Below, piece after piece: positions 3,360-21,829 of a DNA stretch of 29,756 nt. How positions within the stretch are numbered: the stretch's first letter is position 1; each line of letters starts with the position of its first letter. The DNA is from an uncultured Pseudomonadota bacterium. Its GTDB lineage: Bacteria; SAR324; NAC60-12. The translations under genes and the position numbers were made by a program. The DNA lies in contig CAJWCD010000026.1 in the NCBI GenBank assembly GCA_913020725.1, positions 1 through 29,756 on the forward strand, in the 5' to 3' direction. Below the pieces are notes generated by a model. That model was not told the origin of the DNA. It saw only the letters and a program-made list of their open reading frames with translations, and did no database searches.

Positions 3360-4208
3360 TCACGGATGCAATGCCGCTGCATGGTGCCGGATGTGGTCCT
3401 CCATGAAGGTGGCGATAAAGTAGTAGCTGTGATCGTAACCCGGTTGCATCCGGAAGGTCGCCGGATAGTCCTTGGACTCGCAGGTTTGCTTGAACAACTC
3501 GTAATTCAATTCCTCCATGAACTGATCCTCGGAACCCTGATCCACCAGCAGGGGCGCAGTCATGCTGCTGGATTGCATCAACGCATTGGCATCATGCTGT
3601 GCCCAAGCCTCCGGATTGTCGCCAAGGTAACTGCCGAGCGCTTGCTGTCCCCACGGGCATTGGCTGGGAGCGCAGATCGGCGCAAACGCGGACACCGAGC
3701 GAAAGCGTTCTGGATTCTTGAGTGCGAGCGTCAGGGCGCCATGCCCCCCCATCGAGTGCCCAAAGATGCTTTCACGTTCTGGATTGGTGGGGAAATTTGC
3801 GTGGATCAGTTTGGGGAGTTCGTTGACGATGTAGTCGTCCATGCGGTAGTGTTGCGCCCATTTCTCGACGGTTGCGTTGAGGTAGAATCCTGCTCCGGTG
3901 CCAAGATCGTAGCGTTCGTCCTCGCCTTCGATTCCGGCGCCACGTGGGCTGGTATCCGGAACTACGAGCATCAATCCAGCCGCCGCCGCGTACTGTTGCG
4001 CTCCGGCTTTGGTGATGAAGTTCTCGTGGGTACAGGTCAGTCCGGAAAGCCAATACAGTACCGGAACCGGGCCGGATTCCGCCTGGGGGGGCAGGAACAC
4101 AGAAAACTTCATTTCGCACGAACACGTCTCGGAAGCGTGGCTGAACATCTTGGTCCAGCCGCCGAAGGTTTTGTTTGCGCCGAGGGATTCGAGGGTGGTG
4201 GTTGTCAC
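3360..4208 (-). CDS. fghA: S-formylglutathione hydrolase
   Basis: PVLYWLSGLTCTHENF, PDTSPRG, nucleophile motif GHSMGGHG, GYDHSYYFIATF; GTG start. Confidence 0.97.
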   Translation of the reverse strand: MTTTTLESLGANKTFGGWTKMFSHASETCSCEMKFSVFLPPQAESGPVPVLYWLSGLTCTHENFITKAGAQQYAAAAGLMLVVPDTSPRGAGIEGEDERYDLGTGAGFYLNATVEKWAQHYRMDDYIVNELPKLIHANFPTNPERESIFGHSMGGHGALTLALKNPERFRSVSAFAPICAPSQCPWGQQALGSYLGDNPEAWAQHDANALMQSSSMTAPLLVDQGSEDQFMEELNYELFKQTCESKDYPATFRMQPGYDHSYYFIATFMEDHIRHHAAALHP

Positions 4209-4266
4209 AATTTGCCTGAGAGAAAGTTGAGATTGATTTTAGAGCAAGGACTATGCAGATGAAGGG

Positions 4267-5394
4267 TCATGGGGTCGGAGTTGGGAGTTTCAGGATTTTT
4301 TCCCGGACCCAGTAACGCAAGAGGGGGTCCGTGAACGAGTAAGCTCCGTTTGCTTTTTCCAAAAGCCCGGTGTTCAGCAGTCGCTTCACGGTGCGGGAGA
4401 TGTTGATTTTGCGGGAATCCATGACGGCGTACAAGGAGGAATTCCCTTTGGCCAGTTCCAAAACCACCTGCTTTTCTTGATGCTTGGCGCTGATTTCGTC
4501 CCAGACCTTTTCGCAATAGTTCACCTCTGTCTCCAGCGAGAGAGTCAGCAAGTCCTGAAAGGAACGATCTGCTTTTCCAAGCTGCTCACGGTGAAACAGT
4601 GCTTGCTGAGCCAGCAGTTGGGTGTAATACGGATGCCCGTTCGTGAAGCGGGTGATTTGGGCTGCGAGCGGTTGGGGCTGCTCAAAACCTTCCTCTTGAA
4701 ACACGGAGGTGAGGTGTTTCTGAAACACTCCCGGATCAATGGGCTTGAGCCGGAAGATTCTCGCGAATCGGTAAAACGGGGCCGTCGGCGAGACAAAGGT
4801 GTTGGACATCACCGACTCATGGCTCCCCGAAAAAAGACAAATGGTTGATGCCTGAAGTTGAAGCTCGGCGCGAAAGAGCTTCACAATTTTCTCCCCATCC
4901 AGCTTTCCTACATCTCCGAACTCATCGAAAACGGCAACGGTTTGGACTTTGTGCTTTTGAGAAAACGTCTCGATGAGCTTGAGGGAAGACCTCAGCAGGT
5001 CCCATGCGTTGGCCGACGCTTGCCCAAATCCCAGAATGAATTCGCTCCCCTCCACTTCCTGACGGAACTGAAGGTTTTGCATCAAGTCCGCAATTTGGTG
5101 TTTCAGTTGATGGATGGAAAAATCCAACTTCCGGTTGGACAGCACTCCTTTGGTGATCTCGGCGGCTAAATCATAAAGGTCCGGGATGGAGAAGAGATCC
5201 AAGTAAAACGAAAACAAGTTTTGTTGCTTGCTTCTGCGGAGGCTCTCCAGCAGGAGCGAGGTTTTGCCATATCGCCTTGGAGCAATCAGGGCCACGCTTT
5301 GACCCATCGCAATGCACTGCTCAAGCTCCCGAAGCTCCTGCTCCCGGCCAATCAGATTGCTCCCGGTCACTGGCTTTCCAACCTGAATCTGCAT
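4267..5394 (-). CDS. AAA+/archaeal-ATPase-like P-loop ATP-binding protein with probable C-terminal winged helix
   Basis: GKPVTGSNLIGRE, Walker A APRRYGKTS, Walker B VAVFDEFG, LFSGS, TNGHPYY (GxP), FTDPLLRYW; ATG 5394 chosen because the longer ORF overlaps frmA. Confidence 0.85.
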   Translation of the reverse strand: MQIQVGKPVTGSNLIGREQELRELEQCIAMGQSVALIAPRRYGKTSLLLESLRRSKQQNLFSFYLDLFSIPDLYDLAAEITKGVLSNRKLDFSIHQLKHQIADLMQNLQFRQEVEGSEFILGFGQASANAWDLLRSSLKLIETFSQKHKVQTVAVFDEFGDVGKLDGEKIVKLFRAELQLQASTICLFSGSHESVMSNTFVSPTAPFYRFARIFRLKPIDPGVFQKHLTSVFQEEGFEQPQPLAAQITRFTNGHPYYTQLLAQQALFHREQLGKADRSFQDLLTLSLETEVNYCEKVWDEISAKHQEKQVVLELAKGNSSLYAVMDSRKINISRTVKRLLNTGLLEKANGAYSFTDPLLRYWVREKILKLPTPTP

Positions 5395-5397
5395 GTG

Positions 5398-5468
5398 CGA
5401 CAGTTTGTGTATGCTACAGGAAGTGTCGTATGCGCCTGCCCCCGTCTTTCCGGAGCAGGCGCAAGCGT

Positions 5469-5471
<3 letters not shown>
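5398..5471 (-). repeat. 74-bp structured dispersed repeat, copy 1 (includes the frmA TGA)
   Basis: 63/74 ungapped identity to 21889-21962; 9-bp stem TGCGCCTGC (5431-5439)/GCAGGCGCA (5455-5463) plus a second imperfect CGACA/TGTCG stem. Confidence 0.9.
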
Positions 5472-7249
<1,778 letters not shown>

Positions 7250-7263
<14 letters not shown>

Positions 7264-8566
7264 TGCTCACCTTGCCCTCCACATCCAGCTTCCACGTCTG
7301 GATCGCGTTGTTGTGGTAGGTGGAGCGGGTGCCCCGCACCTTGCGCAATTGCCTAATGGTCGGTTGCACATAACCGCTTTCATCAATGACCCGGCTTTGC
7401 AACAAAAGCGGTTCGCCCTGCCACGTCCAAGTCATCCGGAAGCTTGTCAGGCATTTGGAAAGGACGGGCTGCTGGAGCTTGGCGGTTTCCCAATTGTTCC
7501 CACCGTCCACCGAGACATCCACCCGCTTGACCTTCCCGCGTCCGGACCACGCGAGTCCCCGGATTTCGTAGCTGCCCCGCTCCCGCAGTTGCTGGCCTCC
7601 GGACGGGAAGGTGATGACCGACTTGGCCTCGTTGACAAACGTGAACTGGCGGGCACTGCCGTCCGGCATCAGGTCGGTGTAGCGCGAGGTCTCCTCCCGC
7701 GTCATCCACGGGCGGGTGCCGACCTCCAAGCGCCGCAACCACTTCACGTTGGCGTTGCCCTCGAATCCGGGGCAGAGCAGGCGCAGCGGATAGCCCTGTT
7801 CCGGGCGGATGCGCTCGCCGTTTTGAGCATAGACCACCATCGCGTCATCGAGTGCCTTCGCCATCGGGATGCTGCGGGCAAGTCCGGCGGCATCCGCGCT
7901 TTCGGCTAGAATCCAGCGGGCCTGCCGATCCACCCCCACTTCGTCCAGCAGGGTGGAGAGCCGCACCCCGGTCCACTCCGAGCAGCCGATCATGCCGTGC
8001 GTGAATTGCACCGTCGGCATCACAGCCTGCGTCCACTCCAGCGTACCGTTCCCAGAACACTCGATGAAATGGATGCGCGACACCGACGGGAAGCGCATCA
8101 ACTCATCCATCGTGAAGAGCAGTGGACGCTGGACGAGTCCATGAATGAGCAGCCGATGTTCGTCAGGGTTGATGTCTGGAACCCCGGCGTGGTGCCGCGC
8201 AAAGTGCAGGCCGTTGGGCGTGACGATTCCGTGCAAGTCCTGCAAGGGAGTGAAGTTCACCGAGGCCCGCTCGTCCGGAAACAGCCAGTCAATGTCCCGG
8301 CGCATCACTTCACTCTCAAAACGGGAGGGCTGCCCGTAGGGAGCCCCCACCCCCACCCCCAACTCCTTTGACCACGACGGAGTGTGCGGAGGCAAATTGG
8401 AGCCTTGGGATTCTGCAAGGGCCGCAGTTGCGCCCAGCAGTCCGGCACCTGCCGCCCCTCCAGTGGCGAGGCTGGTTTGCAGGAACCTTCGGCGGCTCCA
8501 ATCCGTCCGGAAAGTTTCCGGACTCTGCCCAAGAACATGCTGCTGGTTCGAGGGATTGGCTGCCAT
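7250..8566 (-). CDS. soxC: Molybdopterin sulfane dehydrogenase subunit SoxC
   Basis: Tat motif SRRRFL; FTPLQDLHGIVTPNGLHF; Mo-ligand FIECSGNG; EQGYPLRL; REETSRYTDL; YHNNAIQTW; ATG 8566 (GTG 8575 alternative). Confidence 0.93.
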
Positions 8567-8592
8567 TTGCGTCACTTCGATTTCCGGTCGGC

Positions 8593-8922
8593 CTACTGCA
8601 CCACTCCGGAGCCTTCAAAGACGGTGTTGTAGTTGTCCACCAACCGGAGGTCGATTCGGTCCCCCTTCTTGCCCCGGTAACGGAATTCGATGAACGGGTT
8701 CCTGGAGATGGCGATGCTCCACTGCATCTCCAGCGCCAGTTCCCCGTTGACCCACACGACTCCCTCGGTGATGATGTGTTCCGGCCAGAATCCCCCGGTG
8801 GTCGGGTCGCGGCGCAAGCCGGTTTCCATCGGGTGCCTGATCAGCGCCTTCACCTGCACGATTCCGTCCTGCTCCCGGGCATGAACGCGGACGGTGCGTT
8901 CGTCTTTTTTTTGCTCTGCCAT
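8593..8922 (-). CDS. soxZ: Sulfur carrier complex protein SoxZ
   Basis: VKALIRHPMETGLRRD and WSIAISRNPF motifs; no signal peptide; directly after soxY. Confidence 0.93.
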   Translation of the reverse strand: MAEQKKDERTVRVHAREQDGIVQVKALIRHPMETGLRRDPTTGGFWPEHIITEGVVWVNGELALEMQWSIAISRNPFIEFRYRGKKGDRIDLRLVDNYNTVFEGSGVVQ

Positions 8923-8948: not shown

Positions 8949-9416
8949 TCAAGTGCATCCCCCAACCATAACCTGCACCGTGTGGGTCGCCCGGTAGAGC
9001 TTTCCGTTGGCCTTGACGACAACCAGCACTGGAGTTGTGCCAGGGCCATCCACCTTGATGCGGGTCGAGACAAAGGGTTCGACATGCTTGCCGAGCTTGT
9101 AGATCCCGGTCAAAGGCGTGGGGTTCTTCGCCACAAACACGGTGAAGGATTCGACCTCCTTCAGAGTGGTGGAGATCTCCATCGGCACAACCGCACCGTT
9201 CTGCCACCGGTCCGGCATTTTCAGGACCACCTCTGGGGAATCCTCGATGGGGGTGTTGCCAAACACGGCCTGGATGGACCGCGCAAAATTCGCCTCCCGG
9301 AAAGCGGCTTCGTCCCAGGCCGCCCACAACGGCATGGGCGAACACAGCCCCGCCCAGAGGACGGGAGCCGCAGTCCCCCATCCCAGAGCATTCCGGAAAA
9401 ATTCACGTCGTTGCAT
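8949..9416 (-). CDS. soxY: Sulfur carrier protein SoxY with variant C-terminal arm (VMVGGCT)
   Basis: Tat motif QRREFF; QNGAVVP, KNPTP, STRIK motifs; C-terminal GGC; AGGAGG RBS. Confidence 0.9.
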   Translation of the reverse strand: MQRREFFRNALGWGTAAPVLWAGLCSPMPLWAAWDEAAFREANFARSIQAVFGNTPIEDSPEVVLKMPDRWQNGAVVPMEISTTLKEVESFTVFVAKNPTPLTGIYKLGKHVEPFVSTRIKVDGPGTTPVLVVVKANGKLYRATHTVQVMVGGCT

Positions 9417-9443: not shown

Positions 9444-9929
9444 TTATAATTTCAGTTTTTTCAGTTTATGCCGCACCAGCCACTTGGCGGCACGTTCCCA
9501 CGCTTTCCAGTTGTCGCCCCGGAAACTGACGGTACGGCTGAACAGCACCCGTTCCGTCTCCGCTTCGAACACCATGACCTGCATCCCCAGGATCAGCTCG
9601 CTGACCTTGCGGACCACCCCGGCAACCGCCCAGTCCCACTGGTGCTGCTTGGCAATATCCAGAAAGCAGCCGTTGCAGCCGTAGAGGGGTTCACCATCCT
9701 CAATCTCAGCCTGGGCGGGGGTCAGGTCCGGGGTGGAGAACCCGTACTGGACAAAGCCGTCCCGAATGATTTGAGTCACACCATCCAGCCATTCCGTGTG
9801 TCCCGGCTTTTGGCCTCCCCCGCTGGTATCAATCAGCTCGAAGCGGAACACCGCCACCTGCGGAGGAGCCGCGAGGACGGTGCCCGCGATTCCTGTTGCC
9901 GCCAGCAGAACTCCTAACCACTTTATCAT
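9444..9929 (-). CDS. Secreted DUF3280-like protein
   Basis: Signal peptide; VAVFRFELIDTS, CNGC, GVVRKVSELI, FRGDNWKAWERA match the DUF3280 pattern as I recall it. Confidence 0.75.
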   Translation of the reverse strand: MIKWLGVLLAATGIAGTVLAAPPQVAVFRFELIDTSGGGQKPGHTEWLDGVTQIIRDGFVQYGFSTPDLTPAQAEIEDGEPLYGCNGCFLDIAKQHQWDWAVAGVVRKVSELILGMQVMVFEAETERVLFSRTVSFRGDNWKAWERAAKWLVRHKLKKLKL

Positions 9930-10693
9930 GGGTTTGTTTTCACTTCCAGATGTTGCATGAGTTCCCGGCCCATTGCAAAGGCTCGCTGCTCCAGCAAGAC
10001 GGGTTGCTCACAGATGTAGCTCAGGGACTGCTCGCGCTGCTCAAAGGCCCGCTTGAACCAGTTTCTCTTGGAAAGCAGGTCGTCGTATTCCTCCTGTTGT
10101 TCCGCATTCATTTTCCTAGGAAAGGCTCGCAGCTTCAGTTCGAGCGTCTCCATCCGGTCTCCCAGCTTACGCTGGGCCACGGTGAACTTCTCGATCTTAC
10201 CGATGATGCGGTTCCGTTCCAGGTTGATGGTCTCCAGCATCCCGCTGGCCACCAGCGTCAACCGGTGATCCCGTCCAGATCCCAACTGTTGTGCAAATTC
10301 CACAACCTGCCGTTTCCCTTTCTCCAGCGGAGTTCTCCGGGAGGAAATCGCTTCCACCAGCATGGCAACCTCTGCATCCTTGAGCCACTTTCCCGTGAGT
10401 TCGTCAAACGGTGGTCCGACCCAGATCATGCCCGGTGAGATTTCCGGAACCTTGCGCTGGACGCACGGCCAGTTCTTGTCCGTGGGACTTCCGGAGAGGC
10501 CAAGCGTGGGGTGAGCCAGCAGCCCAATCCACAAGGCCAGAAAGAAAAGGGCAAAGTTCCAGAGGAGCAGAGTTCCAAAGGAGCCTGCCCTCCCTGCCCG
10601 GTCCCTTTGGGACTTTGGGACTTTGGAGCTTTGGAACTTCAATGTGAGTGCTGGAAGCCTCCTGTTGGTGAACCACAAGTGTCGAATGCCCAT
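9926..10693 (-). CDS. Exported hypothetical protein of the PQQ-catabolism/Lut-like cluster (start uncertain)
   Basis: Hydrophobic signal segment, then WPCVQRKVPEIS..W.GP, a helical coiled region, and SLSYICEQPVLLEQR; stop overlaps the DUF3280 ATG. Confidence 0.75.
   Translation of the reverse strand: MGIRHLWFTNRRLPALTLKFQSSKVPKSQRDRAGRAGSFGTLLLWNFALFFLALWIGLLAHPTLGLSGSPTDKNWPCVQRKVPEISPGMIWVGPPFDELTGKWLKDAEVAMLVEAISSRRTPLEKGKRQVVEFAQQLGSGRDHRLTLVASGMLETINLERNRIIGKIEKFTVAQRKLGDRMETLELKLRAFPRKMNAEQQEEYDDLLSKRNWFKRAFEQREQSLSYICEQPVLLEQRAFAMGRELMQHLEVKTNP
10553..10638. repeat. Short tandem and inverted repeat cluster
   Basis: Four 8-mers CTTTGGGA, CTTTGGGA, CTTTGGAG, CTTTGGAA (10605-10636); two 16-mers AAAGTTCCAGAGGAGC/AGAGTTCCAAAGGAGC (10553-10584); AGTTCCAAAG (10571-10580) is the reverse complement of CTTTGGAACT (10629-10638). 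Confidence 0.75.
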
Positions 10694-10760
10694 CTCTGTC
10701 CTCTTGTGCCAGAGTCCCAATTTCCTCCCCGGTGAGCGAGAATGCCCCGTTCAGGGTAGG

Positions 10761-11741
10761 CTACTTGATCGCTAACCCCCACGGATAGCGGCCCACGGCA
10801 ATTGACTTGATGACTTTGAGATCTTCCACATCAATAACTGAAATGTCATTGCTGACCCCGTTTGACGTGTAGAGATATTTTTCCTCCGCATCAAATGCCA
10901 ACTGCCAAACACGTTGGCCCACCAGCAAGTATTTCTTCACCTCAAATGTTTGTGTGTCAACAACGGCCACACGGTTGGCAGGGCCAAGAGCGATGAAAGC
11001 CGTTTTGAGATCATGAGTAACCCGCACTCCCACAGGTTGAAGCGCTTCATTGCGCACACCCGGAACATGGAATGTGATTTTCCGGACAACCTTCCGTGTT
11101 TCGTTTGAGATCACGCTGACCGTTCCTCCCACTTCCGAAGAGACCCAAATAAATTTTCCGTCGTCCGTGTATTCGGCGAAGCGTGGACGACTGTCTACCA
11201 AAACATTGTCTGTGATTTCCAAAGTTTCGGTGTCGATGAAATGGGCCATATTGGTCGTTTCGGAAGTGTTGACGATTGTTTTACCGTCCGGACTGACCGC
11301 CATGCCTTCCGGTTCAACTCCAACCGGAATTTCAACCAACACCTGCCCCGTGTTGACGTTGACCACCGTGACCATATTATCATCTTCGTTGGCGATGTAA
11401 AGACGGACACCGTCCGGATGCAAAATGAAAAGTTCCGGATCCGGTCCGGAGGGCAAGGTGTCAATAATTTTGTAAGTTTCGGTGTCCATCACCTCCACAT
11501 GATCATCGTCGCTGGCACAGATGTAGAGGTAGCGTTTGTCTTTGCTCAAAATGATGCCGCGAGGTCGTTGGCCGACTTCAACGGTTTTAATCACCTTAAA
11601 ACTATCAGAATCAATCACACTGATAGTATTATCTTTTTCGTTTGAAACAAAAACTTTGTAAGCCTGAGCCGATGCCCCCCAGAACATGATCCCCAGTCCG
11701 AGCATTGTGCCGGGCAGTATTTTCTTGAATGCTCGATTCAT
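10761..11741 (-). CDS. PQQ-dependent catabolism-associated YVTN beta-propeller protein (PedA2-like)
   Basis: Signal peptide; VFVSNEKDNTISVID, VGQRPRGI, LPSGPDPE, VGVEPEGMAVSPDG repeats; VGRYPWG C-terminus. Confidence 0.92.
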   Translation of the reverse strand: MNRAFKKILPGTMLGLGIMFWGASAQAYKVFVSNEKDNTISVIDSDSFKVIKTVEVGQRPRGIILSKDKRYLYICASDDDHVEVMDTETYKIIDTLPSGPDPELFILHPDGVRLYIANEDDNMVTVVNVNTGQVLVEIPVGVEPEGMAVSPDGKTIVNTSETTNMAHFIDTETLEITDNVLVDSRPRFAEYTDDGKFIWVSSEVGGTVSVISNETRKVVRKITFHVPGVRNEALQPVGVRVTHDLKTAFIALGPANRVAVVDTQTFEVKKYLLVGQRVWQLAFDAEEKYLYTSNGVSNDISVIDVEDLKVIKSIAVGRYPWGLAIK

Positions 11742-11750
11742 TAAATTGGT

Positions 11751-12935: not shown

Positions 12936-12949
12936 CAACGGAATCGTTA

Positions 12950-13867
12950 TTACGGTACAATAATCGGATTTCCCTTGCGGTCTAAGAGGAGCAGGCCATA
13001 ACTCATAAGAATCTGGTTGATGTCCTGTTGACGTTTGCGAATAATTTTATTGAGAGTCCGTTTCCACTCGATTTCTCCGTGCCGGACTCCCATCGTAATC
13101 CGGTAATTCATTTTCGGCATATCCGGTTCATCCCGAATCGGCAGTACCGTCATTTTCACATTTTTCCGACCAATGTAATAACCGGCAATCGGCCCCCAAA
13201 GTAAGCCCACGTCAACCTCTCCGGAAGCCACGTCCGCTACCATGTCCCGTCCGGATTTCTGAATTCGAGTGTCCACAATCAATTGATATGGGCGATGATT
13301 GTCGAAAAGTTCATACTTGAGCATCAAGTTTGCGGGCGGAGTCCCCGCGACAACGCCAATACGTAATTTGCGGAACTGTGGGTCAGAAAGTTGGGTTCCG
13401 GTAATTCCTGAATCCTTGCGGAAAAACAGCACAAAAACGGAACGATAATAGTGATTGGTGTTCAGCAAAAGTTCGTGAGCTGACGAGATTCCCATAACAA
13501 GATCGCACTTCCGCACCCGCAAAGTGTTCCGGATGAAGCCCCGCGTTTGCGGAAACCAAGTGTAGTGTATCGGTATTTGGAGTTCCTCGGCAACCACTTT
13601 GGCAATCTTGTTTTCAAAGCCTTCTTCTTTGTCATTGGAAAAGGGGAGATTTCCCGGATCAGCACAGACGCGGAGTGCCGTGCGGTCACGCACCTCCGTA
13701 GTCTGGGCAGATAGAGTTGAAGCAAAAATCAGCAGTCCGAAGATTAAAATTATGCTCCAACAGTTTTTCACAAAATTGCGGTCGGGACGACTGCGGTCCT
13801 TGTAGGTTTTCGTCATTGTTGATTCCGCCGGAACGTCCGGTACGAGTTGTGTTTTGGTGAGTTTCAT
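12950..13867 (-). CDS. xoxJ: XoxJ/MxaJ-family periplasmic binding protein
   Basis: LRVCADPGNLPFSN, GFENKIA, RNTLRVRKCDLVMG, WGPIAGY, MGVRHGE; follows xoxG with an ATGA overlap (a downstream start is possible). Confidence 0.93.
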   Translation of the reverse strand: MKLTKTQLVPDVPAESTMTKTYKDRSRPDRNFVKNCWSIILIFGLLIFASTLSAQTTEVRDRTALRVCADPGNLPFSNDKEEGFENKIAKVVAEELQIPIHYTWFPQTRGFIRNTLRVRKCDLVMGISSAHELLLNTNHYYRSVFVLFFRKDSGITGTQLSDPQFRKLRIGVVAGTPPANLMLKYELFDNHRPYQLIVDTRIQKSGRDMVADVASGEVDVGLLWGPIAGYYIGRKNVKMTVLPIRDEPDMPKMNYRITMGVRHGEIEWKRTLNKIIRKRQQDINQILMSYGLLLLDRKGNPIIVP

Positions 13868-14364
13868 GAGTCCTTCCAAGCATCACTGTTCATACAGGCG
13901 TTTTCGGAATCTCTCGCAATTTGAGGTTTGCGTTGTTTTTGGCGTGGTCTTCCGGGTTTTAGTACGCCAGCGGCACGGGCCTTGAGGTAGGAAAAAATAT
14001 GTTCAACGTAACACATCACGTTCGGGTTGTTGGCGAAGGAGGGCATCACGTTCTGATCGGCCGTGCCCACATTCATCCGTCCGGCCACGACCATCGCCAG
14101 AAATTCCGGATAGCTCATGGTCTTGATGGAGTCTATCAGGCCCGGCGCGTAAGAACTACCCATTCCGTTCGGGCCGTGGCAGACATGGCAGTCGGAGTGG
14201 TAGCGCCGGAAGCCACTGTAACTGTACCAGTCAATCTTCCCCTCCTTCACGTTGTACGGAATGTTCATGTCCCAAGCTTGAGCGGAGACGGTTGTGGGTA
14301 TCCAGAGGAACGCGGTGGCTCCGAGCAGCAAGAGGGCGCGGAAGGCGTTTGGTGTGATTTTCAT
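13864..14364 (-). CDS. xoxG: Cytochrome c, methanol-metabolism related (XoxG)
   Basis: Signal peptide; DWYSYSGFRRYHSDCHVCHGPNGMGSSYAP; NVMPSF..NPNVMCY; directly downstream of xoxF. Confidence 0.93.
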   Translation of the reverse strand: MKITPNAFRALLLLGATAFLWIPTTVSAQAWDMNIPYNVKEGKIDWYSYSGFRRYHSDCHVCHGPNGMGSSYAPGLIDSIKTMSYPEFLAMVVAGRMNVGTADQNVMPSFANNPNVMCYVEHIFSYLKARAAGVLKPGRPRQKQRKPQIARDSENACMNSDAWKDS

Positions 14365-14563: not shown

Positions 14564-16354
14564 TTAGAGACTGAAGACGGTCAGCGTACCACCTAACCGG
14601 GTCCAGTTGTTCAGGGCGCGGTAACCGCCCACCGCTCCGAGGCCATCGGTGTCCTTCTCCAAGCCTGCGGCCATACCGATACCAGCCCAGCCACCCACAC
14701 CGGAGAGGATCGCAATGTACTGCTTCCCGCCGTGCTTGTAGGTGGTCACGTTGCCGATGATGCCGGACGGAGTGCGGAACCTCCAGAGTTCACGCCCAGT
14801 GTTGGCATCCACGGCCTTGATGTAGCCCTCCAGCGTTCCGTAGAAAGCAACATCGCCCGCAGTGGAAAGCACTCCGCTCCAGACCGAAAAACGCTCCGGA
14901 TTCGACCAGACAATCTTTCCTTTGACGGCATCCCAAGCGATGAAGTTCCCCATGTGATCACCACCCGGTGCCGGGAACATACTCAGCGTCGCACCGACAT
15001 AAGGTTGCCCCGCAGTATAGGAAACACGGAACGGCTCGTAGTCCATGCAGACATGATTGGTCGGCACATAAAACAAACCGGTGCGCGGCGAGTAGGATGC
15101 TGGTTGTTGATCCTTCGTTCCCAGAGCTGCCGGACAAACGTCGGTGGTGTTGACATCCTCACCATTCTGGTCAGTACTGTAACGCGATACCACTTGCGGC
15201 CGCCCCGTCACCATGTCCACATGCGTCGCCCAGTTGACGGCAGGATCATATTTTTCCGCAACGATCAGTTCACCGGTGGCACGGTCCAACGTGTAACCAA
15301 AGCCGTTGCGGTCAAAGTGAACCAAGACCTTGCGCATTTGGCCGTCGATTTTCTTGTCAGCCAAGATCATCTCGTTGACGCCGTCAAAATCCCACTCGTC
15401 ATGCGGGGTCATCTGATAAACCCATTTGGCCACGCCTGTGTCCACATCACGGGCAAAAATGGCCATGGTCCACTTGTTGTCCCCCGGACGCACCGTCGGG
15501 TTCCAAGTACTCGGATTCCCGGTTCCGTAATACATCAGATTCAGTTCCGGATCAAAGGAATACCAGCCCCAAGAGGAGCCGCCGCCGATTTTCCATTGGT
15601 CGCCCTTCCAGCTATTGAGGCTGGAATTCTTACCGACAGGCTTACCCATCGAGGTGGTGGTAACCGGATCGATGAGCATCTCATGATCCGGCCCAGTGGT
15701 ATAGCCCCGCCAAACCCTCTTGCCGGTGTTGATGTCGTAAGCGGTCATGTGTCCACGCACTCCAAACTCAGCACCGCTGATGCCGACGAACACCTTGTCC
15801 TTGAAGACCATCGGAGCACTCGTTCCGCTGGCGCCGACCCTGAAGTTCTGAGGATCGTTCATCACCGACCAGACTTTGCGACCGGTCTTTGCGTCAAGTG
15901 CAACCAGCGTCGTATCGGCTTGATAAAGAAAGATCTTGCCTGCCGCATAGGACAAGCCGCGATTGACGGTGTCACAGCACATGATCGGAATGACATTGGG
16001 ATCCTGCTTGGGAACGTACTCCCAGAGAATCCGGCCCGGCTCATTCAGATCGAGAGCAAAGACCCTGTTCGGAAACGGGGAATGGAGATACATCGTGTCT
16101 CCGATGATGAGCGGGCCACCCTCGTGACCACGTAGCACACCGGTTGAGAACGTCCAAGCGACTTTCAGCCGATGGACATTCGCCCGGTGGATCTGCGCCA
16201 GTTGGCTGTAGCGATGGTTGGCGTAATTGCCTGTGGGCATGACCCACTCAGACGGGTTTTGCTGTCTGACCAGCAACTCTTCGTTGGCTTGCACACTCAT
16301 TGCGAGCGGCAAGGCCATTGCACAACCTAAGATTGTGACAAGTAATCGCTTCAT
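14564..16354 (-). CDS. xoxF: Lanthanide-dependent PQQ methanol dehydrogenase XoxF (probably XoxF5-like)
   Basis: GGAGGA RBS and signal peptide; [13 protein letters not shown]; vicinal CC (MCCDTVNRG); [27 protein letters not shown] with the extra Ln-binding Asp (MxaF has Ala there); no mxaI. Confidence 0.97.
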
Positions 16355-16636: not shown

Positions 16637-17572
16637 TCAGTTGCGGGACTCTGTACTCTTCCGGACAATCTGGTGCTGGTACTGCTTGGGTGTGAGCCCG
16701 ATGGTGTTCTTGAAGAGCTGGATGAAGTAGCTCAGGGAGTTGAGTCCCGTCATGTGACAGACTTCCGTGACCGTGATCCTCGGCTGGTGGAGGAGGTGCT
16801 TTGCCCGCTCAATGCGCAGTTCATTGATGTACTGCACGGGGGTCATCCCAAATTCGTTCCTGAAGTGGCGGAACAGTTGGGCGATGCTCATGTGCGCTTC
16901 GCGGGCAAGCTGTTTCATGGAGAGGGGTTGTTCCAGATGGGTCTTGAGGTACTCGGCGAGGTGGGCCAAGGGGTGGGTTCCTGCAAGGGGCTTGCTGTGC
17001 TTCAGCAGCCGGATCACGGATTGCAGCTGCAAGACCCGAATGATCAGTTCCATCACCTTGATATCCAACAACGCGGGCTGGAAGATGTGTTGTTCTCGGC
17101 TGACTTGCACCAGTCCCTCAAGAATCTTGTCGATGTGAGGGGTGTTGGGAAAATGGAGGAAGTGGTGGTCTTCGTACCGCCACTCTTCGGATTCCTCGAC
17201 GCGGGCCACCTGCTCGTTGAGTTGGGCAATGATCTTGTTCAGCTGACCCGGGTCGATCTCCACCTTGAGGCATTTGGTGGGTGCCTCCAAGTCGGCGTGG
17301 GGGAAGTCAATCATCACCTCATCGTGTGCGGGGATCATCAGGGATTCACCCGGAACAAACTCGAAAGAGGAGTCGTCTGTGTGGACGATCTTCTTGCCGC
17401 AGAGCATCCCGCAATAGAGCGGGCTGGAGGACTTGAACACCACCCCTTTAGCCTGCACGCTCGTATTGTAGATCGAGAACTCGACATGCTCGGTGTTCCC
17501 GAAGACCACCTTGTCCTCGATGCTCTCCACGGCTTCCCGGTCAGGACGGGATTGCTGCAGTGCAATGCTCAT
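16637..17572 (-). CDS. AraC-family transcriptional regulator (AraC_N-type N-terminal domain)
   Basis: GGAGG RBS before ATG 17572; MLCGKK..FEFVPGES N-domain; double HTH LAREAHMSIAQLFRHFRNEFGMTP...RIERAK...LSYFIQLFKNTIGLTPKQY. Confidence 0.93.
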   Translation of the reverse strand: MSIALQQSRPDREAVESIEDKVVFGNTEHVEFSIYNTSVQAKGVVFKSSSPLYCGMLCGKKIVHTDDSSFEFVPGESLMIPAHDEVMIDFPHADLEAPTKCLKVEIDPGQLNKIIAQLNEQVARVEESEEWRYEDHHFLHFPNTPHIDKILEGLVQVSREQHIFQPALLDIKVMELIIRVLQLQSVIRLLKHSKPLAGTHPLAHLAEYLKTHLEQPLSMKQLAREAHMSIAQLFRHFRNEFGMTPVQYINELRIERAKHLLHQPRITVTEVCHMTGLNSLSYFIQLFKNTIGLTPKQYQHQIVRKSTESRN

Positions 17573-17707: not shown

Positions 17708-17750
17708 GAACCTGCTTTCGGAAAGATGATCCGAAGAAGCCAGCAGGTTC
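17708..17750 (-). other. Bulged stem-loop downstream of gfa
   Basis: GAACCTGCT (17708-17716)/AGCAGGTTC (17742-17750) outer stem plus TTCGGA/TCCGAA inner stem; no U-tract. Confidence 0.5.
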
Positions 17751-17767
17751 AGATGGGGATCAACCGC

Positions 17768-18322
17768 TTACCCTTTGGCGGTGTGGGCGGCGATGAGGTC
17801 CATCAACGGGGGAGACAGGCAATCGTAGGGTTCAAGGCCAATCTCCTTCAGCCTTGCTCGGATCGCACCCATGTCGTTGGGATCCGTTCCGGACTCGATG
17901 ATCGAGGAGACAAAGGCTGCAAATTCCGTAGGGGACCAGCCATCCTCATCGGACAGTTCAGAGTGGACGAAATCCAGTCCGTAGAAGGGGTGCCCTTGAT
18001 TTTCGATCCGCCCGTACATGTGCACACCGCATCCCTTGCAGGCGTAACGTTGAATGGCCGCGCTCGGATCAACGATCTCAAGCTTGTCTCCATTCTCAGT
18101 GACGCTGACATTGTCTCGGGACACCACGGCGATCTGTGAAAACACCGTCCCCTCCGGCTTCCAGCACTTCGTACAGCCACACACATGATTGTGAGCGGTC
18201 TGACTGGAGATGGCCACGACCACTGGATTATCTGCACAAGCGCATTTAAGCGTACCGCCTGAAAAGCCTTCCACTGCGGGCTTAATGCCGTTATCAACCG
18301 AAGGATGTATGGAGATAGCCAT
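17768..18322 (-). CDS. gfa: Glutathione-dependent formaldehyde-activating enzyme
   Basis: [65 protein letters not shown]. Confidence 0.97.
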
Positions 18323-18426
18323 TTCGTTTTCCTGAGTTTGTGTTGAAGAATAGACTCAGCCCTGAGCCTTTAAGCCCAATGGGATGAGCACGACAGAGCC
18401 TAACCTTCTCACAGTTGCTGCAAAAA

Positions 18427-18468
18427 TTCTCACGGAATCTTATCTTTAATTGTCGTTATCCCATCAGA
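18427..18468 (-). promoter_or_regulatory. Putative AraC operator upstream of gfa
   Basis: 29/42 ungapped identity to 16541-16582; half-sites TGATGGGAT and AGATAAGAT 21 bp apart on the minus strand. Confidence 0.55.
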
Positions 18469-18632
18469 CGGGTGCAAATTGAGCAGTCGGATGCTTTTGC
18501 GGGAAGCGGAAGGGAGCAACTCTTTGAGGATCGGATCAGTCCAGCTTGAATTCAGGTCGTAGGATTCTCCAAGGAACTTTTGGGAAGGTTGCAGAACGAG
18601 GACTCAGATGCACTCTTGCCGTGGCACGGGGA

Positions 18633-19910
18633 TCATCCGAACACATCTGTGGTGATGTTCTCGTACCAACTCTGGGCGTATGCGGCCTCCCGTGCCCGTA
18701 GTGATTCGGGTGCATCCTTGGGACTGACACCACCAGCCCCTTTCACGCTGACAATCTCGCTGTTCTCGACACGATACACTCCCGCCACAGAGATCGCGTG
18801 GCCCGGGGTAACGAAGCTGTAGCAGATGTTGAGGTAAGACGGCGGGACCGGACTCTCTTGCCGCAGGTGAGCGACCACCGTTGCTACCGTCACCTTTGCT
18901 TGGCTGTTGGCGGCAAAACCTGACTTGGGCATCGCTCCTGCGAGACTGGCATCGCCAAGCAGGTGGACGTTGGGCAAGTGTCGGGATTCAAAGGTTTCCG
19001 CATGGACGGGGCACCAACCGCTCTCGTCGGCGAGTCCGGAGATGCGGACAACCTTCCCAGCTTGCTGCGCAGGGATGAAGTTGATCACATCCCCGTACTC
19101 CCAGCCGAACTCGGTGCGAACGCGCATTCCCCGCACGTCCAACTCCAGTGGTCGGCCTCCAGCACTGCCCTGCCGCCACTCGATCATCTCCCCGTAGTGC
19201 TGCTGCCAGCCGTCCATGAAAAGCTGCTGCTTGGAGAATTGCTCCTTGGAGTCGAGGATGAGGATTTTGGCTTTGGGGTTGTGATGACGCAGGTCGTGGG
19301 CAATCAAGCTGGCCCGCTCGTAGGGTCCGGGAGGGCAGCGGTACGGATTCTCCGGAGGGCAAATGATCACGGTGCCGCCCTCCGGCATCGCTGCGAGCTG
19401 CTGCCGCAGCCGCGATGTTTGCTCCCCCGCTTGCCACGCATGGGGCATGGCCTCGACAGCAAATTCCCCGTAGCCCGCCATCTGGTCAAAACGGAAATCA
19501 ATTCCGGGAGCGACCACGGCTCGCTCAAACGGCAGCTTGACCCCATCCTCCAGCAGCACGACTCCCGGCTTGACGCGAGCAGCACGGGCGTGAATCACCC
19601 GGATGCCGTACTTGTGTTCGAGCGTCTTGTAATGCTGGGCAAGCTCACCAAATCCCTTGAGATTTCCCAACACAAGGTTGCTGAAAGGGCAGGTATGGTA
19701 GGTCCGCTTCGGCTCGACGAGAGTGACCTCAAGGCTGGAATCGAACCGCTTGAGGTACTTCGCTGCGGTTGCCCCGCCGAATCCTCCACCAACCACGACC
19801 ACCCTGCGCTTTGCGGCCAGCAGAAGTTGTGGAGCGGCCACAGCCATGCTGGTGGCTCCGGCCAGCTTCCCGAAGTTTCTGCGAGTCAAGTTGTGAGTGG
19901 AAGGGGTCAT
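18633..19910 (-). CDS. fccB: Flavocytochrome c sulfide dehydrogenase flavoprotein subunit (FccB/SoxF)
   Basis: Tat motif TRRNF; VVVVGGGFGGATAAKY; YHTCPFSN (FAD-linked Cys); YRCPPGPYERAS; MPKSGFAANSQ; NICYS. Confidence 0.94.
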   Translation of the reverse strand: MTPSTHNLTRRNFGKLAGATSMAVAAPQLLLAAKRRVVVVGGGFGGATAAKYLKRFDSSLEVTLVEPKRTYHTCPFSNLVLGNLKGFGELAQHYKTLEHKYGIRVIHARAARVKPGVVLLEDGVKLPFERAVVAPGIDFRFDQMAGYGEFAVEAMPHAWQAGEQTSRLRQQLAAMPEGGTVIICPPENPYRCPPGPYERASLIAHDLRHHNPKAKILILDSKEQFSKQQLFMDGWQQHYGEMIEWRQGSAGGRPLELDVRGMRVRTEFGWEYGDVINFIPAQQAGKVVRISGLADESGWCPVHAETFESRHLPNVHLLGDASLAGAMPKSGFAANSQAKVTVATVVAHLRQESPVPPSYLNICYSFVTPGHAISVAGVYRVENSEIVSVKGAGGVSPKDAPESLRAREAAYAQSWYENITTDVFG

Positions 19911-20221
19911 GGCTTGCGTTGGGCGAGGGCACGGGCGAGTTGCCGGATTTCCGCATCGGTGTATCCCTTGGCAATGCGGTCCATTATGGTGGCCTTCCGT
20001 GTGCCATTCCGGAACTGCCGCAGTGCAATCTCCAACTCTTGGGCTGACTTGCCGCTTAGCGTGGGAATCGCTCCTGAGTTGTCATCGTCAGGAGCGTGAC
20101 AAGCCGTGCAGGAAAGTGACAGCACAAGCCCCCGCTCCTCTGCTTCTGCGACTTCACCGAGGAAGGCCAAAGGTGCTGCCAGAAACAGGGTTGCAAAAAC
20201 TTGGTGCTTGAGTGAGATCAT
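19907..20221 (-). CDS. fccA: Monoheme cytochrome c subunit of flavocytochrome c (FccA-like)
   Basis: Signal peptide; CTACH; IPTLSG; ATIMDRIAKGYTDAEI; ATGA overlap with fccB. Confidence 0.88.
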   Translation of the reverse strand: MISLKHQVFATLFLAAPLAFLGEVAEAEERGLVLSLSCTACHAPDDDNSGAIPTLSGKSAQELEIALRQFRNGTRKATIMDRIAKGYTDAEIRQLARALAQRKP

Positions 20222-20273
20222 CAGGTTTGTCTCCCTGAGTACCTGCTCTTGTTCTCAGGGATGAGCCAGAGTC

Positions 20274-21077
20274 TCAATTTCCTCCTCGTCGGGCAAGGGT
20301 GCCCCGGGTGGGATCGTAACCCCAGATGGCAAGTGTCAGAAACACTAAAGTGCAGACGGCCACATAGGTCAAGGAAAAGGTGTTGAGTTGACCGTAGAGC
20401 GCAAAGCGGATCAGTTCAACGGCGTGAGTGAAGGGGTTGTAGGCGGCAATGTCGTGAAGCAGGATGCTCGACTCCTTCATGCGCCACAGGGGATAGAGCG
20501 CGGAGGAGGCAAAGAACATCGGGAAGATCACGAAATTCATCACGCCCGCGAAATTCTCCAGTTGCTTGACCACGGATGAGATGAACAGCCCCAAGGCTCC
20601 GAACATCAATCCGGAGAGGAAGAGTGCCGGTAGCACAGCGAGGTAGCCCATCAATGGGGCTTCGACCTCCCAAAACCATGCGATCAACAGGTACACCAAG
20701 GATTGCAGGATGGAGATGAACACACCCGCGCAGAGCTTGCTCGTCAACAGAAACCAGCGTGGCAGCGGACTGGTCAGCAGCGTTTTCATGCTGCCCATCT
20801 CGCGGTCATACACCATCGAGAGCGAGGTCTGCATTCCGTTGAAAAGCTGGATCATCCCCAGCAATCCCGGAGTGATGTACACCTCGTAGAGGATATAGGT
20901 TTCGTAGGGTGGAATGATCGAGACACCCAGTGTCGCCCTGAAACCGGCCGCAAAAATGAAGAGCCAGACCAAGGGGCGGACCAAGGACGCGAAGAAGCGG
21001 CTCTTCTGCTGAAGGAAGCGCAGAAACTCCCGCTGGATGATGCCCCCGAAGCAGCGTAGATAATGAATCGGTTTCAC
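20274..21077 (-). CDS. ABC-2-type permease of PQQ-dependent alcohol dehydrogenase systems (PedC/LutF-like)
   Basis: REFLRFLQQKSRF..LVRPLVWLFIFAAGF, LFNGMQTSLSMVYDREMGSM, QLENFAGVMNFVIFPMFFASSALYP; GTGA overlap with the ATPase stop. Confidence 0.93.
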   Translation of the reverse strand: MKPIHYLRCFGGIIQREFLRFLQQKSRFFASLVRPLVWLFIFAAGFRATLGVSIIPPYETYILYEVYITPGLLGMIQLFNGMQTSLSMVYDREMGSMKTLLTSPLPRWFLLTSKLCAGVFISILQSLVYLLIAWFWEVEAPLMGYLAVLPALFLSGLMFGALGLFISSVVKQLENFAGVMNFVIFPMFFASSALYPLWRMKESSILLHDIAAYNPFTHAVELIRFALYGQLNTFSLTYVAVCTLVFLTLAIWGYDPTRGTLARRGGN

Positions 21078-21829
21078 GAGGCGGCTGGCTTTTTCCGGGG
21101 GCGTGTTAGTTTTTGGAAAGCTTCTCGGATGTCCTGTGTTCCGGATTGCTCGACAATTTCCTGCGCCCATCCGTTGGCAATGACTTCGCCCTTGTGGAGG
21201 ATCACCACGCGGTCGGTGGGGAGCACCTCGTCGATCAGGTGGGTTGCCCAAAGCAAGGCCAGTTGTTCCTGCTCACACAACTTCCGGACGTGTTCCAAAA
21301 TCGTTTGTCGGCTGATCAAGTCCAGCCCCACAGTGGGTTCATCCAAGATCATCAACTGCGGTTGGTGCAGCAAGGCCCGCACGATTTCCACCCGCCGCAT
21401 CTGCCCGCCGCTGAGTTGCCGGATTTTCTCGTGGCGGTGTTCCTCCAACCCCAGTCGGCTCAGTTCTTGTGTGCTGCGTTGCTTGGCGTGTGTGCTGTTG
21501 ATTCCGTGGAGCGCGGTGAAGTACAGGAGGTTCTGCTGAACGGTCAGGTCCATGTCCAACGTGCGCTGCTGGAACACCACGCCAAGTTGTTTGAGAGCTG
21601 CGGTGGAGTGGGTGCGGATGTCATGTCCAAAAATGCGAACGGAACCGGAATGCGGATTGTAAAGGCGGGTGATCAGGGAGAACAGCGTGGACTTGCCCGC
21701 GCCATTCTGCCCCAGCAGCACCGTGAAGTCTCCGGGTTCGATCCCAAAAGACACTCTGTTTAGCGCGGGTTTCTTGCCGTAGCTGAAGGAGAGGGAATCA
21801 ACGGTGAGTGCGGAGGTCATGCTCGTCAT
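21074..21829 (-). CDS. ABC transporter ATP-binding protein of PQQ-dependent alcohol dehydrogenase systems (PedB/LutE-like)
   Basis: LLGQNGAGKSTLFSLITRLY, GVVFQQRTLDMDL, LSGGQMRRVE, LDEPTVGLD, LWATHLIDE. Confidence 0.93.
   Translation of the reverse strand: MTSMTSALTVDSLSFSYGKKPALNRVSFGIEPGDFTVLLGQNGAGKSTLFSLITRLYNPHSGSVRIFGHDIRTHSTAALKQLGVVFQQRTLDMDLTVQQNLLYFTALHGINSTHAKQRSTQELSRLGLEEHRHEKIRQLSGGQMRRVEIVRALLHQPQLMILDEPTVGLDLISRQTILEHVRKLCEQEQLALLWATHLIDEVLPTDRVVILHKGEVIANGWAQEIVEQSGTQDIREAFQKLTRPRKKPAAS

What the first reader, a model, noticed from the sequence alone, without database searches (positions are those of the whole stretch)
3360..21829. Lanthanide-methylotrophy genes interleaved with a partial Sox/Fcc sulfur system: candidate coupled C1-sulfur system
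Seen: an unbroken minus-strand series, much of it with short gaps or overlaps: ABC ATPase/permease, fccA, fccB, gfa, araC, xoxF, xoxG, xoxJ, SBP, beta-propeller, hypothetical, DUF3280, soxY, soxZ, soxC, soxD, frmA, AAA ATPase, fghA. The sox and fcc genes sit inside the C1 operons, for example 27 bp from DUF3280 to soxY and 58 bp from soxD to frmA. There is no soxA, soxX or soxB. Established: XoxF plus Gfa/FrmA/FghA oxidise methanol and formaldehyde; FccAB oxidises sulfide; SoxCD oxidises SoxY-bound sulfane; canonical thiosulfate oxidation needs SoxAX and SoxB. Inference: the island may co-process both products of methylated-sulfur breakdown (methanethiol/DMS give formaldehyde plus H2S). Alternatively, SoxYZ-CD-Fcc may be repurposed as a periplasmic thiol/sulfane relay serving XoxF, as suggested for the SoxYZ-like carriers fused in other quinoprotein clusters. 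I do not recognise this arrangement as a described system.
Basis: partly seen in the sequence, partly recalled or inferred. Interest (0 to 1): 0.85.

Follow-up and report, generated by a model that had tools for sequence, protein, structure and literature searches.

The report
Stripped Sox module in methanol island
A marine bacterium keeps a cut-down sulfur-oxidising gene set (carrier, molybdenum oxidase and sulfide dehydrogenase, without the thiosulfate-handling enzymes) inside its rare-earth methanol dehydrogenase gene block, where it likely clears reactive sulfur that would poison methanol oxidation, rather than forming a methylated-sulfur pathway.

Summary
The genes, order and short gaps are real; an independent assembly matches 99.2% over 13.4 kb. 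The host is a SAR324-phylum genome (93% complete) in which soxA, soxX, true soxB, mtoX, dsrA and pqqBCDE were not found.

SoxC and SoxD are of the canonical in-cluster type. SoxY is unfused and keeps its arm cysteine but ends GGCT instead of GGCGG; two relatives at 59-61% identity end GGCS.

The link is rare. XoxF5 occurs in 1 of 88 SAR324-phylum genomes. Of 401 sampled Pseudomonadota genomes, 17 hold both xoxF and soxC, and none has them within 80 kb (6 kb here).

The block is a composite. frmA-AAA-fghA is native to the genus, and the series probably forms at least four transcription units.

SoxYZCD without SoxAXB is already noted, and unexplained, in Methylococcus and Methylophaga, and works alone in Sulfurimonas.

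Best reading (inferred): a periplasmic sulfide/sulfane/sulfite sink that protects PQQ-XoxF and feeds cytochrome c. Methanethiol/DMS co-processing lacks its entry enzyme, although a DmdA-like gene exists elsewhere in the genome. Verdict: new variant of a known kind; moderate interest.

The parts
21883..21964 (.). 82-bp direct repeat, copy just behind mrp (edge of the block)
   Evidence: 84% identical to 5392-5473; only these two copies in the genome
21074..21829 (-). PedB/LutE-type ABC ATPase (lanthanide uptake by family)
   Evidence: TIGR03864 338.6/302
20274..21077 (-). PedC/LutF-type ABC permease (start approximate)
   Evidence: TIGR03861 409/241
20262..20306 (.). 45-bp repeat at the permease-fccA junction; second copy at 10705-10749 behind the beta-propeller gene; likely rearrangement scar (inferred)
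   Evidence: 80% identical pair
19907..20221 (-). FccA, monoheme cytochrome c
   Evidence: one CxxCH; 54% identical to FccA of a SAR324 sox cluster
18633..19910 (-). FccB, flavocytochrome c sulfide dehydrogenase flavoprotein, twin-arginine signal
   Evidence: PF21706 and PF09242; PDB 5n1t E 4e-140 with cysteines aligned
17768..18322 (-). Gfa, glutathione-dependent formaldehyde-activating enzyme
   Evidence: TIGR02820 333/235
16637..17569 (-). AraC-family regulator
   Evidence: PF06719 and PF12833; 46-48% identical to AraC genes next to PQQ dehydrogenases of other SAR324
14564..16354 (-). XoxF5 lanthanide-type methanol dehydrogenase
   Evidence: PDB 6oc5 E 3e-289; vicinal CC and DxD motifs; named close hits are XoxF5
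13864..14364 (-). XoxG cytochrome c
   Evidence: TIGR03874 180/162
12950..13879 (-). XoxJ (start approximate)
   Evidence: TIGR03871 297/212
11751..12938 (-). PedA1/LutA-type binding protein
   Evidence: TIGR03863 472/414
10761..11741 (-). PedA2-type beta-propeller protein
   Evidence: TIGR03866 520/287
9926..10720 (-). exported protein of unknown function common in xoxF clusters (start approximate)
   Evidence: homologs near xoxF in 7 of 9 control loci
9444..9929 (-). DUF3280 protein, common in xoxF clusters
   Evidence: PF11684; annotated neighbours
8949..9416 (-). unfused SoxY with twin-arginine signal and altered arm ending GGCT
   Evidence: TIGR04488 109/125, TIGR04557 57/140; alignment; same ending in 15 of 15 listed cluster members
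8593..8922 (-). SoxZ
   Evidence: TIGR04490 95/76
7250..8575 (-). SoxC molybdoprotein of the in-cluster (sulfane dehydrogenase) type
   Evidence: TIGR04555 646/420; PDB 2xts E 1e-122; tree
6637..7263 (-). monoheme SoxD with CMxxC motif
5469..6578 (-). FrmA; native gene of the genus, now 58 bp behind soxD
   Evidence: TIGR02818; 91% identical gene behind mrp in G063
5392..5473 (.). 82-bp repeat, native copy between frmA and the ATPase gene
   Evidence: also present in G063
4267..5394 (-). AAA/ATPase_2 protein; native
   Evidence: PF01637; G063 ortholog
3360..4208 (-). FghA; native
   Evidence: TIGR02821; followed by the cox operon in G062 and G063
2728..3249 (+). small exported cysteine protein common in xoxF clusters (start probably near 2912)
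   Evidence: homologs in 6 of 9 control loci
131..2667 (-). NitT/TauT-type ABC transporter, three genes, associated with PQQ clusters
   Evidence: 83% identical copy in G063 beside another PQQ dehydrogenase

Best explanation
The block is a lanthanide XoxF5 methanol-oxidation island that carries FccAB and a Sox module reduced to SoxYZ and SoxCD, and these likely act as a periplasmic sink for sulfide, sulfane sulfur and sulfite that protects PQQ-XoxF and passes the electrons to cytochrome c. Shown: gene content and order, intact motifs, in-cluster type of SoxCD, altered SoxY arm, and no soxAXB found. From established family knowledge: XoxFGJ oxidise methanol to formaldehyde, Gfa/FrmA/FghA take it to formate, PedA1A2BC imports lanthanides, FccAB oxidises sulfide to sulfane sulfur, and SoxCD oxidises SoxY-bound sulfane and can oxidise sulfite. 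Inferred: SoxY is loaded directly by polysulfide or FccB rather than by SoxAX; the oxidised sulfur leaves without SoxB, probably as thiosulfate or sulfite by thiol exchange; soxYZCD is read from the xoxG-xoxJ-lut unit into frmA; and the benefit to XoxF is what keeps the genes together. It is predicted not to oxidise thiosulfate.
For: soxYZCD follows DUF3280 and precedes frmA with 27 and 58 bp gaps. Contigs from RNA libraries bridge DUF3280-soxY in 2 of 4 runs, soxZ-soxC in 2, soxC-soxD in 3 and soxD-frmA clearly in 1 (32 of 149 records were listed; a bridge shows no single transcript). SoxC falls with in-cluster SoxC (87/99), and SoxD has CMxxC like 3 of 3 in-cluster and unlike 5 of 5 orphan SoxD tested. 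SoxC has 4 silent and 0 amino-acid changes against L060, so it is not decaying. The usual XoxF relay genes (TIGR04557/58/59, CXXCW protein) were not found in G000, while 5 of 6 sampled alphaproteobacterial xoxF loci carry the fused carrier. Literature passages: sulfite retards methanol growth in Hyphomicrobium (PMC10451225); PQQ-sulfur adducts and a protective role for relay proteins are proposed (PMC12997753, PMC11237559); SoxCD oxidises sulfite (PMC5336275); Sulfurimonas CVO oxidises S0 with soxCDY2Z2 alone (PMC10045233).
Against: No biochemistry exists. The link was seen in one species-level cluster only (1 of 88 phylum genomes). The 60,842-bp contig that carries the nearest SoxY and SoxC relatives shows no XoxF among the 120 best hits or the five clusters checked, a weak hint that the module also travels without xoxF. 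fccAB is separated from xoxF by three gaps of about 200-310 bp. In the Paracoccus system, oxidation of sulfide-treated SoxYZ needed SoxAX, SoxB and SoxCD together (PMC5336275), and no SoxH-like hydrolase lies in the block. A fused relay carrier was also not found in congener G063, which has another PQQ dehydrogenase. pqqBCDE were not found, so XoxF activity itself depends on scavenged PQQ or on missing sequence.
Confidence: 0.45

Rival explanations
1. Composite flexible island: an independent sulfide/S0-oxidising module (FccAB plus SoxYZCD, like the Sulfurimonas soxCDYZ unit) and a XoxF cluster share one variable site and supply energy separately, with no functional link.
For: Repeats at junctions and a split ped transporter point to shuffling. 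The block is missing between mrp and frmA in G063 as assembled, with a 100-N gap. Contigs of two RNA runs leave the window at 21982 into the same other sequence. 0 of 17 Pseudomonadota genomes holding both genes have them within 80 kb. The nearest sox relatives may lack xoxF nearby.
Against: The sox genes sit inside a probable transcription unit of xox and lut genes with gaps under 60 bp. No hydrolase to release the product is present. The order is kept in an independent assembly.
Confidence: 0.3
2. Methylated-sulfur co-processing: methanethiol from DMSP or DMS is split to formaldehyde and sulfide, and the island oxidises both products.
For: A DmdA-like gene scores 409.7 against a cut-off of 410. 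Formaldehyde and sulfide enzymes lie together. Methylophaga induces FccB on DMS and has soxCDHYZ without soxAB, and one species grows on DMS without mtoX (PMC6548844, passages).
Against: No SBP56/MtoX in G000, while it was found in 4 of 88 phylum genomes. None of 6 molybdopterin proteins reaches a DMS dehydrogenase-type cut-off. dmdA is on another contig. frmA-fghA are native genes, and the genome has other formaldehyde sources such as TMAO demethylase.
Confidence: 0.12
3. The module is the visible half of an ordinary Sox system whose soxAXB lie in the unassembled part of the genome.
For: The genome is 93% complete in 204 contigs. SoxCD is of the in-cluster type. Complete soxXYZABCD clusters occur in related genera.
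Against: soxZ and soxC are 17 bp apart where relatives hold soxA and soxB. The SoxY arm is altered in the whole clade. SoxA was not found in either congener.
Confidence: 0.07
4. XoxF acts as a ThdT-like thiol dehydrotransferase that couples tetrathionate to glutathione and feeds SoxCD, as reported for Advenella.
For: A XoxF homolog works with SoxBCD in A. kashmirensis (as cited in bioRxiv 10.1101/683490, passages). XoxF, SoxCD and glutathione-linked enzymes are neighbours here.
Against: That pathway needs SoxB, which was not found. Knocking out xoxF had no effect in Paracoccus thiocyanatus (same preprint). XoxF here has ordinary XoxF5 motifs and partners.
Confidence: 0.06

Closest known systems
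Truncated SoxYZ + SoxCD sets of methylotrophs (Methylococcus, PMC8527097; Methylophaga soxCDYZH, PMC6548844)
   Same: SoxYZ and SoxCD without SoxA, SoxX and SoxB in a methanol oxidiser; role stated as unclear
   Different: The passages read give no linkage to xoxF. Here the genes lie inside the xox/lut unit, with FccAB nearby, no SoxH, and in a SAR324 host.
Campylobacterota soxCDY2Z2(H) unit (Sulfurimonas CVO, Sulfurovum; PMC10045233, PMC9122950)
   Same: Stand-alone carrier plus sulfane dehydrogenase linked to sulfide/S0 oxidation without SoxAXB
   Different: No adjacent SoxH hydrolase; order YZCD; heterotrophic C1 context (no RuBisCO found)
Quinoprotein relay set TIGR04557/TIGR04558/TIGR04559 (PP_2677/PP_2678; SoxYZ-S4 of PMC11237559; review PMC12997753)
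   Same: A cysteine-arm sulfur carrier next to a PQQ dehydrogenase with a vicinal disulfide; protective role proposed
   Different: The carrier here is unfused and Sox-derived; its partner is a molybdoenzyme, not a zinc hydrolase
Canonical Sox cluster soxXYZABCD-fccAB of other SAR324 genera (L035, L036, L040, L041)
   Same: Same YZ...CD order, monoheme SoxD with CMxxC, FccAB close by; SoxC 57-66% identical
   Different: soxX, soxA and soxB are absent, the SoxY arm is altered, and descent from the native SAR324 cluster is not shown (AU p 0.019 against; unresolved)
XoxF5 clusters of Alphaproteobacteria (Mameliella, Paroceanicella, Azospirillum; L104-L106)
   Same: xoxFGJ, ped/lut transporter, DUF3280 and small exported proteins; frmA/fghA and the NitT-type ABC in two of the three
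   Different: None of 9 control loci carries soxC, soxD or fccB

Membership tests
Canonical Sox (thiosulfate-oxidising) system | SoxAX present | tested here: not met
   TIGR04484: no match; SAR324 SoxA and SoxX queries: no hit; genome 93% complete
Canonical Sox (thiosulfate-oxidising) system | SoxB present | tested here: not met
   best score 140/550; both hits are nucleotidases
Canonical Sox (thiosulfate-oxidising) system | SoxY with C-terminal GGCGG arm | tested here: not met
   ends GGCT, cysteine kept; 109/125
Canonical Sox (thiosulfate-oxidising) system | In-cluster-type SoxCD (clade; CMxxC in SoxD) | tested here: met
   criterion from PMC13500833, section 9
Campylobacterota soxCDYZ(H) unit | SoxCD and SoxYZ together without SoxAXB | tested here: met
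Campylobacterota soxCDYZ(H) unit | Adjacent SoxH hydrolase | tested here: not met
   only distant metallo-hydrolases on other contigs
Campylobacterota soxCDYZ(H) unit | Oxidation of S0 or polysulfide | not testable with these tools
   needs an assay
Quinoprotein relay (TIGR04557/58/59) | Fused SoxYZ-like carrier | tested here: not met
   57-64/140; one SoxY-domain gene in the genome; outside the fused clade
Quinoprotein relay (TIGR04557/58/59) | Relay zinc metallohydrolase | tested here: not met
   best scores 106/280 and 108/300
Quinoprotein relay (TIGR04557/58/59) | Next to a PQQ dehydrogenase with adjacent cysteines | tested here: met
XoxF5 lanthanide methanol dehydrogenase system | Lanthanide-binding DxD, vicinal disulfide, xoxG and xoxJ | tested here: met
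   the meaning of the motif is recalled knowledge
XoxF5 lanthanide methanol dehydrogenase system | PQQ supply (pqqBCDE) | tested here: inconclusive
   not found in a 93% complete genome; pqqC also not found in three 96-97% complete relatives that have PQQ enzymes
PedA1A2BC/Lut lanthanide ABC transporter | Four subunits TIGR03863, TIGR03866, TIGR03864, TIGR03861 | tested here: met
   all over cut-off; split into two pairs
Flavocytochrome c sulfide dehydrogenase FccAB | FCSD domains, conserved cysteines, partner cytochrome | tested here: met
MtoX-based methanethiol oxidation | Methanethiol oxidase gene | tested here: not met
   PF05694: no candidate in G000
ThdT/SoxBCD tetrathionate pathway | SoxB present | tested here: not met
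   thiol dehydrotransferase activity of XoxF cannot be tested here

The most novel reading that the evidence does not exclude
A real Sox carrier and sulfane dehydrogenase have been captured from a thiosulfate pathway, had the carrier arm remodelled, and now replace the missing quinoprotein relay as XoxF's dedicated sulfur-clearing partner. With a DmdA-like gene but no MtoX in the genome, the same periplasmic set might also be an unknown route for methanethiol. That would give the first enzymatic clue to what the cysteine carriers beside lanthanide dehydrogenases do.
Probability: 0.2. Interest if true: 0.85.

Novelty: new variant of a known kind. Interest (0 to 1): 0.52.

Why it matters
Two small open questions meet here: why methylotrophs keep SoxYZCD without SoxAXB (called unclear in PMC8527097), and what the SoxYZ-like carriers beside XoxF carry. 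This locus puts a catalytically typed SoxCD and FccAB into the xox unit, so both questions can be tested with five soluble proteins. It also shows XoxF5 in a SAR324 lineage whose sequence is found in seawater RNA libraries; one SAR324 survey found no methanol dehydrogenase genes (PMC9031357, passage). It also warns that counting soxYZ or soxC as thiosulfate oxidation would mislabel this organism.

Tried and rejected
Chimeric assembly: rejected by L060.

Decaying sox relic: not supported; frames are open and SoxC has 4 silent and 0 replacement changes, though counts are small and SoxY shows 6 silent and 4 replacement changes.

Simple deletion of soxAXB from the native SAR324 cluster: my first reading. 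The AU test disfavoured it (p 0.019, LG+G4, 28 rows), a second tree left it open, and SoxY did not group with SAR324 SoxY. The 71-row tree finished only as a quick tree.

Orphan sulfonate-linked SoxCD type: rejected by the tree and the CMxxC motif.

Genome-collection scan with SoxY gave only two distant loci; the plasmid search with SoxY gave none. The DNA context of P0002, P0003 and P0008 could not be fetched, so synteny beyond the species cluster stays untested.

RNA contig depth was highest over xoxF and little or no cover was seen over fccAB, but contigs cannot rank genes and holes prove nothing. The control stretch was patchy and may vary between strains, so DNA carry-over is not excluded.

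Promoter and terminator scans were at chance level.

Complex prediction SoxC-SoxYZ returned no answer (score 0.00) and is not used either way.

One search missed a 31% identical PQQ dehydrogenase in G063 (seen), so that search speaks only for close XoxF5. G151 was included by mistake and is not used.

The paper on SoxY arm recognition (PMC4702959) was not held. No supplementary files were read; gene-context tables there (for example of PMC11237559, PMC6548844, PMC8527097) may show a soxCDYZ-xoxF linkage that I did not see.

Full report
OBSERVATION. The window is the whole of contig C26 of a 3.45-Mb genome, 93.3% complete and 0.59% contaminated. The host is inferred to be of the SAR324 phylum: a SoxC named 'SAR324 cluster bacterium' matches a same-family genome in protein and contig length. 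Short gaps are confirmed (27 bp DUF3280-soxY, 26 bp soxY-soxZ, 17 bp soxZ-soxC, soxC/soxD overlap, 58 bp soxD-frmA, 52 bp permease-fccA), but four gaps of about 200-310 bp split the series. Contigs from RNA libraries end 95-137 bases upstream of xoxF in four runs and 44-66 bases upstream of gfa in five runs, a weak hint of separate starts. A JGI contig matches 99.2% over 13,377 bp from fccB to frmA, so the arrangement is not chimeric.

THE PROTEINS. XoxF is closest to solved lanthanide XoxF, with the vicinal cysteines and the DxD motif; its named close hits are XoxF5. The four ped/lut transporter subunits pass their cut-offs but are split into two pairs. FccB aligns over its length with solved sulfide dehydrogenases. 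SoxC passes TIGR04555 and groups with SoxC of complete clusters (87/99), not with orphan sulfonate-linked copies; SoxD has one heme and the CMxxC motif seen in 3 of 3 in-cluster and 0 of 5 orphan SoxD (criterion from PMC13500833, section 9 read). SoxY is unfused, keeps its cysteine and ends GGCT; 15 of 15 listed cluster members share this, and two relatives at 59-61% identity end GGCS. They form a clade (100/99) among other non-canonical arms. Non-canonical endings are common: 71 of the 149 other representatives end GGCGG. Against L060, SoxC has 4 silent and no replacement changes.

WHAT THE GENOME LACKS AND HOLDS. Not found: SoxA, SoxX, true SoxB, a second SoxY-domain gene, MtoX, DsrA, RuBisCO, PqqB-E, the relay hydrolase and the CXXCW protein. 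Found elsewhere: a DmdA-like protein (409.7/410), TMAO demethylase, formate dehydrogenase and a BisC-family reductase just under cut-off. Absence is subject to the missing 7%.

DISTRIBUTION. Among 88 phylum genomes, a close XoxF5 occurs only in G000; six others have 32-41% identical PQQ enzymes. SoxA passes its cut-off in 9 of 88, and the four intact loci I read show soxX-Y-Z-A-(K)-B-C-D, three of them with fccAB. Both congeners gave no close SoxC, XoxF5 or FccB. In G063, mrp is followed by frmA-AAA-fghA across a 100-N gap, and the 115 bases before frmA are unlike the end of soxD; in both congeners fghA runs into the cox operon. So frmA-AAA-fghA are native and the variable block spans about 6.6-21.9 kb, with an 82-bp repeat at its mrp edge and a 45-bp repeat at two internal junctions. 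Gain in G000 or loss in G063 cannot be told apart. Contigs of two RNA runs leave the window at 21982 into one other sequence, suggesting populations without this junction. In 401 evenly drawn Pseudomonadota genomes, 33 have XoxF and 51 have SoxC; 17 have both, and the nearest pair on one contig is about 82 kb apart, against 6 kb here (counted by me from the tables; many pairs are on different contigs). None of 9 control xoxF loci has soxC, soxD or fccB, while 5 of the 6 sampled ones carry the fused TIGR04557 carrier. The nearest SoxY and SoxC relatives (59% and 81%) both come from a 60,842-bp contig for which no XoxF appeared among the 120 best hits or five clusters checked.

EXPRESSION. 20 RNA-library runs hold part of the stretch. 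In four runs laid, listed contigs bridge DUF3280-soxY (2 runs), soxZ-soxC (2), soxC-soxD (3), soxD-frmA (1 clearly, with 29 differing letters) and xoxF-xoxG (1) (32 of 149 records shown). This shows the junctions exist in those samples; it does not show single transcripts or expression levels.

MECHANISM. Established steps: methanol to formaldehyde by XoxFGJ; formaldehyde to formate by Gfa, FrmA and FghA; sulfide to sulfane sulfur by FccAB; oxidation of SoxY-bound sulfane, and of sulfite, by SoxCD (PMC5336275, passages). Without SoxAX and SoxB thiosulfate cannot enter or leave the normal cycle. I infer a periplasmic sink: polysulfide loads the SoxY cysteine directly, SoxCD oxidises it, the product leaves by thiol exchange, and electrons reach cytochrome c. 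The likely reason for the linkage is protection of PQQ-XoxF: sulfite retards methanol growth in Hyphomicrobium (PMC10451225, passages), and PQQ-sulfur adducts and a protective role for relay proteins are proposed (PMC12997753, PMC11237559, passages). Against this: the Paracoccus enzymes needed all three components to oxidise sulfide-treated SoxYZ (PMC5336275), no hydrolase is present, the link is known from one species cluster, and a relay carrier was also not found in G063, which has another PQQ enzyme. Confidence 0.45; independent module in a composite island 0.30; methylated-sulfur co-processing 0.12; hidden soxAXB 0.07; ThdT-like XoxF 0.06.

COMPARISON. It works like the Sulfurimonas soxCDYZ unit (PMC10045233, PMC9122950, passages) and occupies the place of the quinoprotein relay, but is a member of neither. 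SoxYZCD without SoxAXB is already reported in Methylococcus (PMC8527097, one passage) and Methylophaga (PMC6548844, passages). SAR324 reviews describe incomplete Sox sets (PMC8364033, passages) and no methanol dehydrogenase (PMC9031357, passages). PMC3797975, PMC13046587 and bioRxiv 10.1101/683490 were read as passages; Pyne 2018, Lahme 2020 and Li 2023 only as cited by these papers. Ten literature searches showed no description of soxYZCD plus fccAB inside a xoxF5 operon; the library lacks most subscription journals and I read no supplements.

VERDICT. Real, rare and intact; a new variant of a known, unexplained kind. Interest 0.52; the boldest reading (a captured Sox module replacing the XoxF relay) has probability about 0.2.

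Noticed in passing
G000 genome; G046-G048: pqqB-E were not found despite an intact xoxF cluster, and pqqC was not found in three 96-97% complete relatives that have PQQ enzymes: possible PQQ scavenging in SAR324.
   Followed up: partly
L094:867-4800 (G063:C125); also L096, L100: A second, divergent soxY-soxB-like-soxZ set with a cytochrome, a beta-propeller protein and a YeeE-type protein, below SoxY and SoxB cut-offs; similar weak SoxY hits occur in several genera of the family.
   Followed up: partly
L095, L096, L097 (G020, G061, G035): soxYZ next to fccAB in SAR324 genera where SoxA and close SoxC were not found: a still smaller carrier-plus-sulfide-dehydrogenase unit.
   Followed up: no
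window 21982 (mrp 3' end): Contigs of two RNA runs continue into a different sequence, suggesting an allele without this block junction.
   Followed up: no
window 1-60: The contig begins with a short dispersed repeat, probably the end of a small mobile element, with many copies in G000 and G062; contig C37 (cox operon) begins with a related repeat and may be the neighbour.
   Followed up: partly
L137:5148-9713 (G000:C6): Unassigned molybdopterin oxidoreductase with a 565-aa ferredoxin-type partner; below all family cut-offs, possibly a sulfur-compound oxidoreductase.
   Followed up: partly
L156 (G063:C132): The congener has a different PQQ dehydrogenase cluster (31% identical to XoxF) beside the same NitT-type ABC transporter.
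   Followed up: partly
window 10761-13879: xoxJ, the binding protein and the beta-propeller gene have 48% GC against 57% for the genome, suggesting a separate origin within the block.
   Followed up: no
window 25194-25873 and 25866-29502: MntA-HepT-type toxin-antitoxin pair followed by gmd and a low-GC flippase and glycosyltransferase; ordinary variable surface-polysaccharide region.
   Followed up: no
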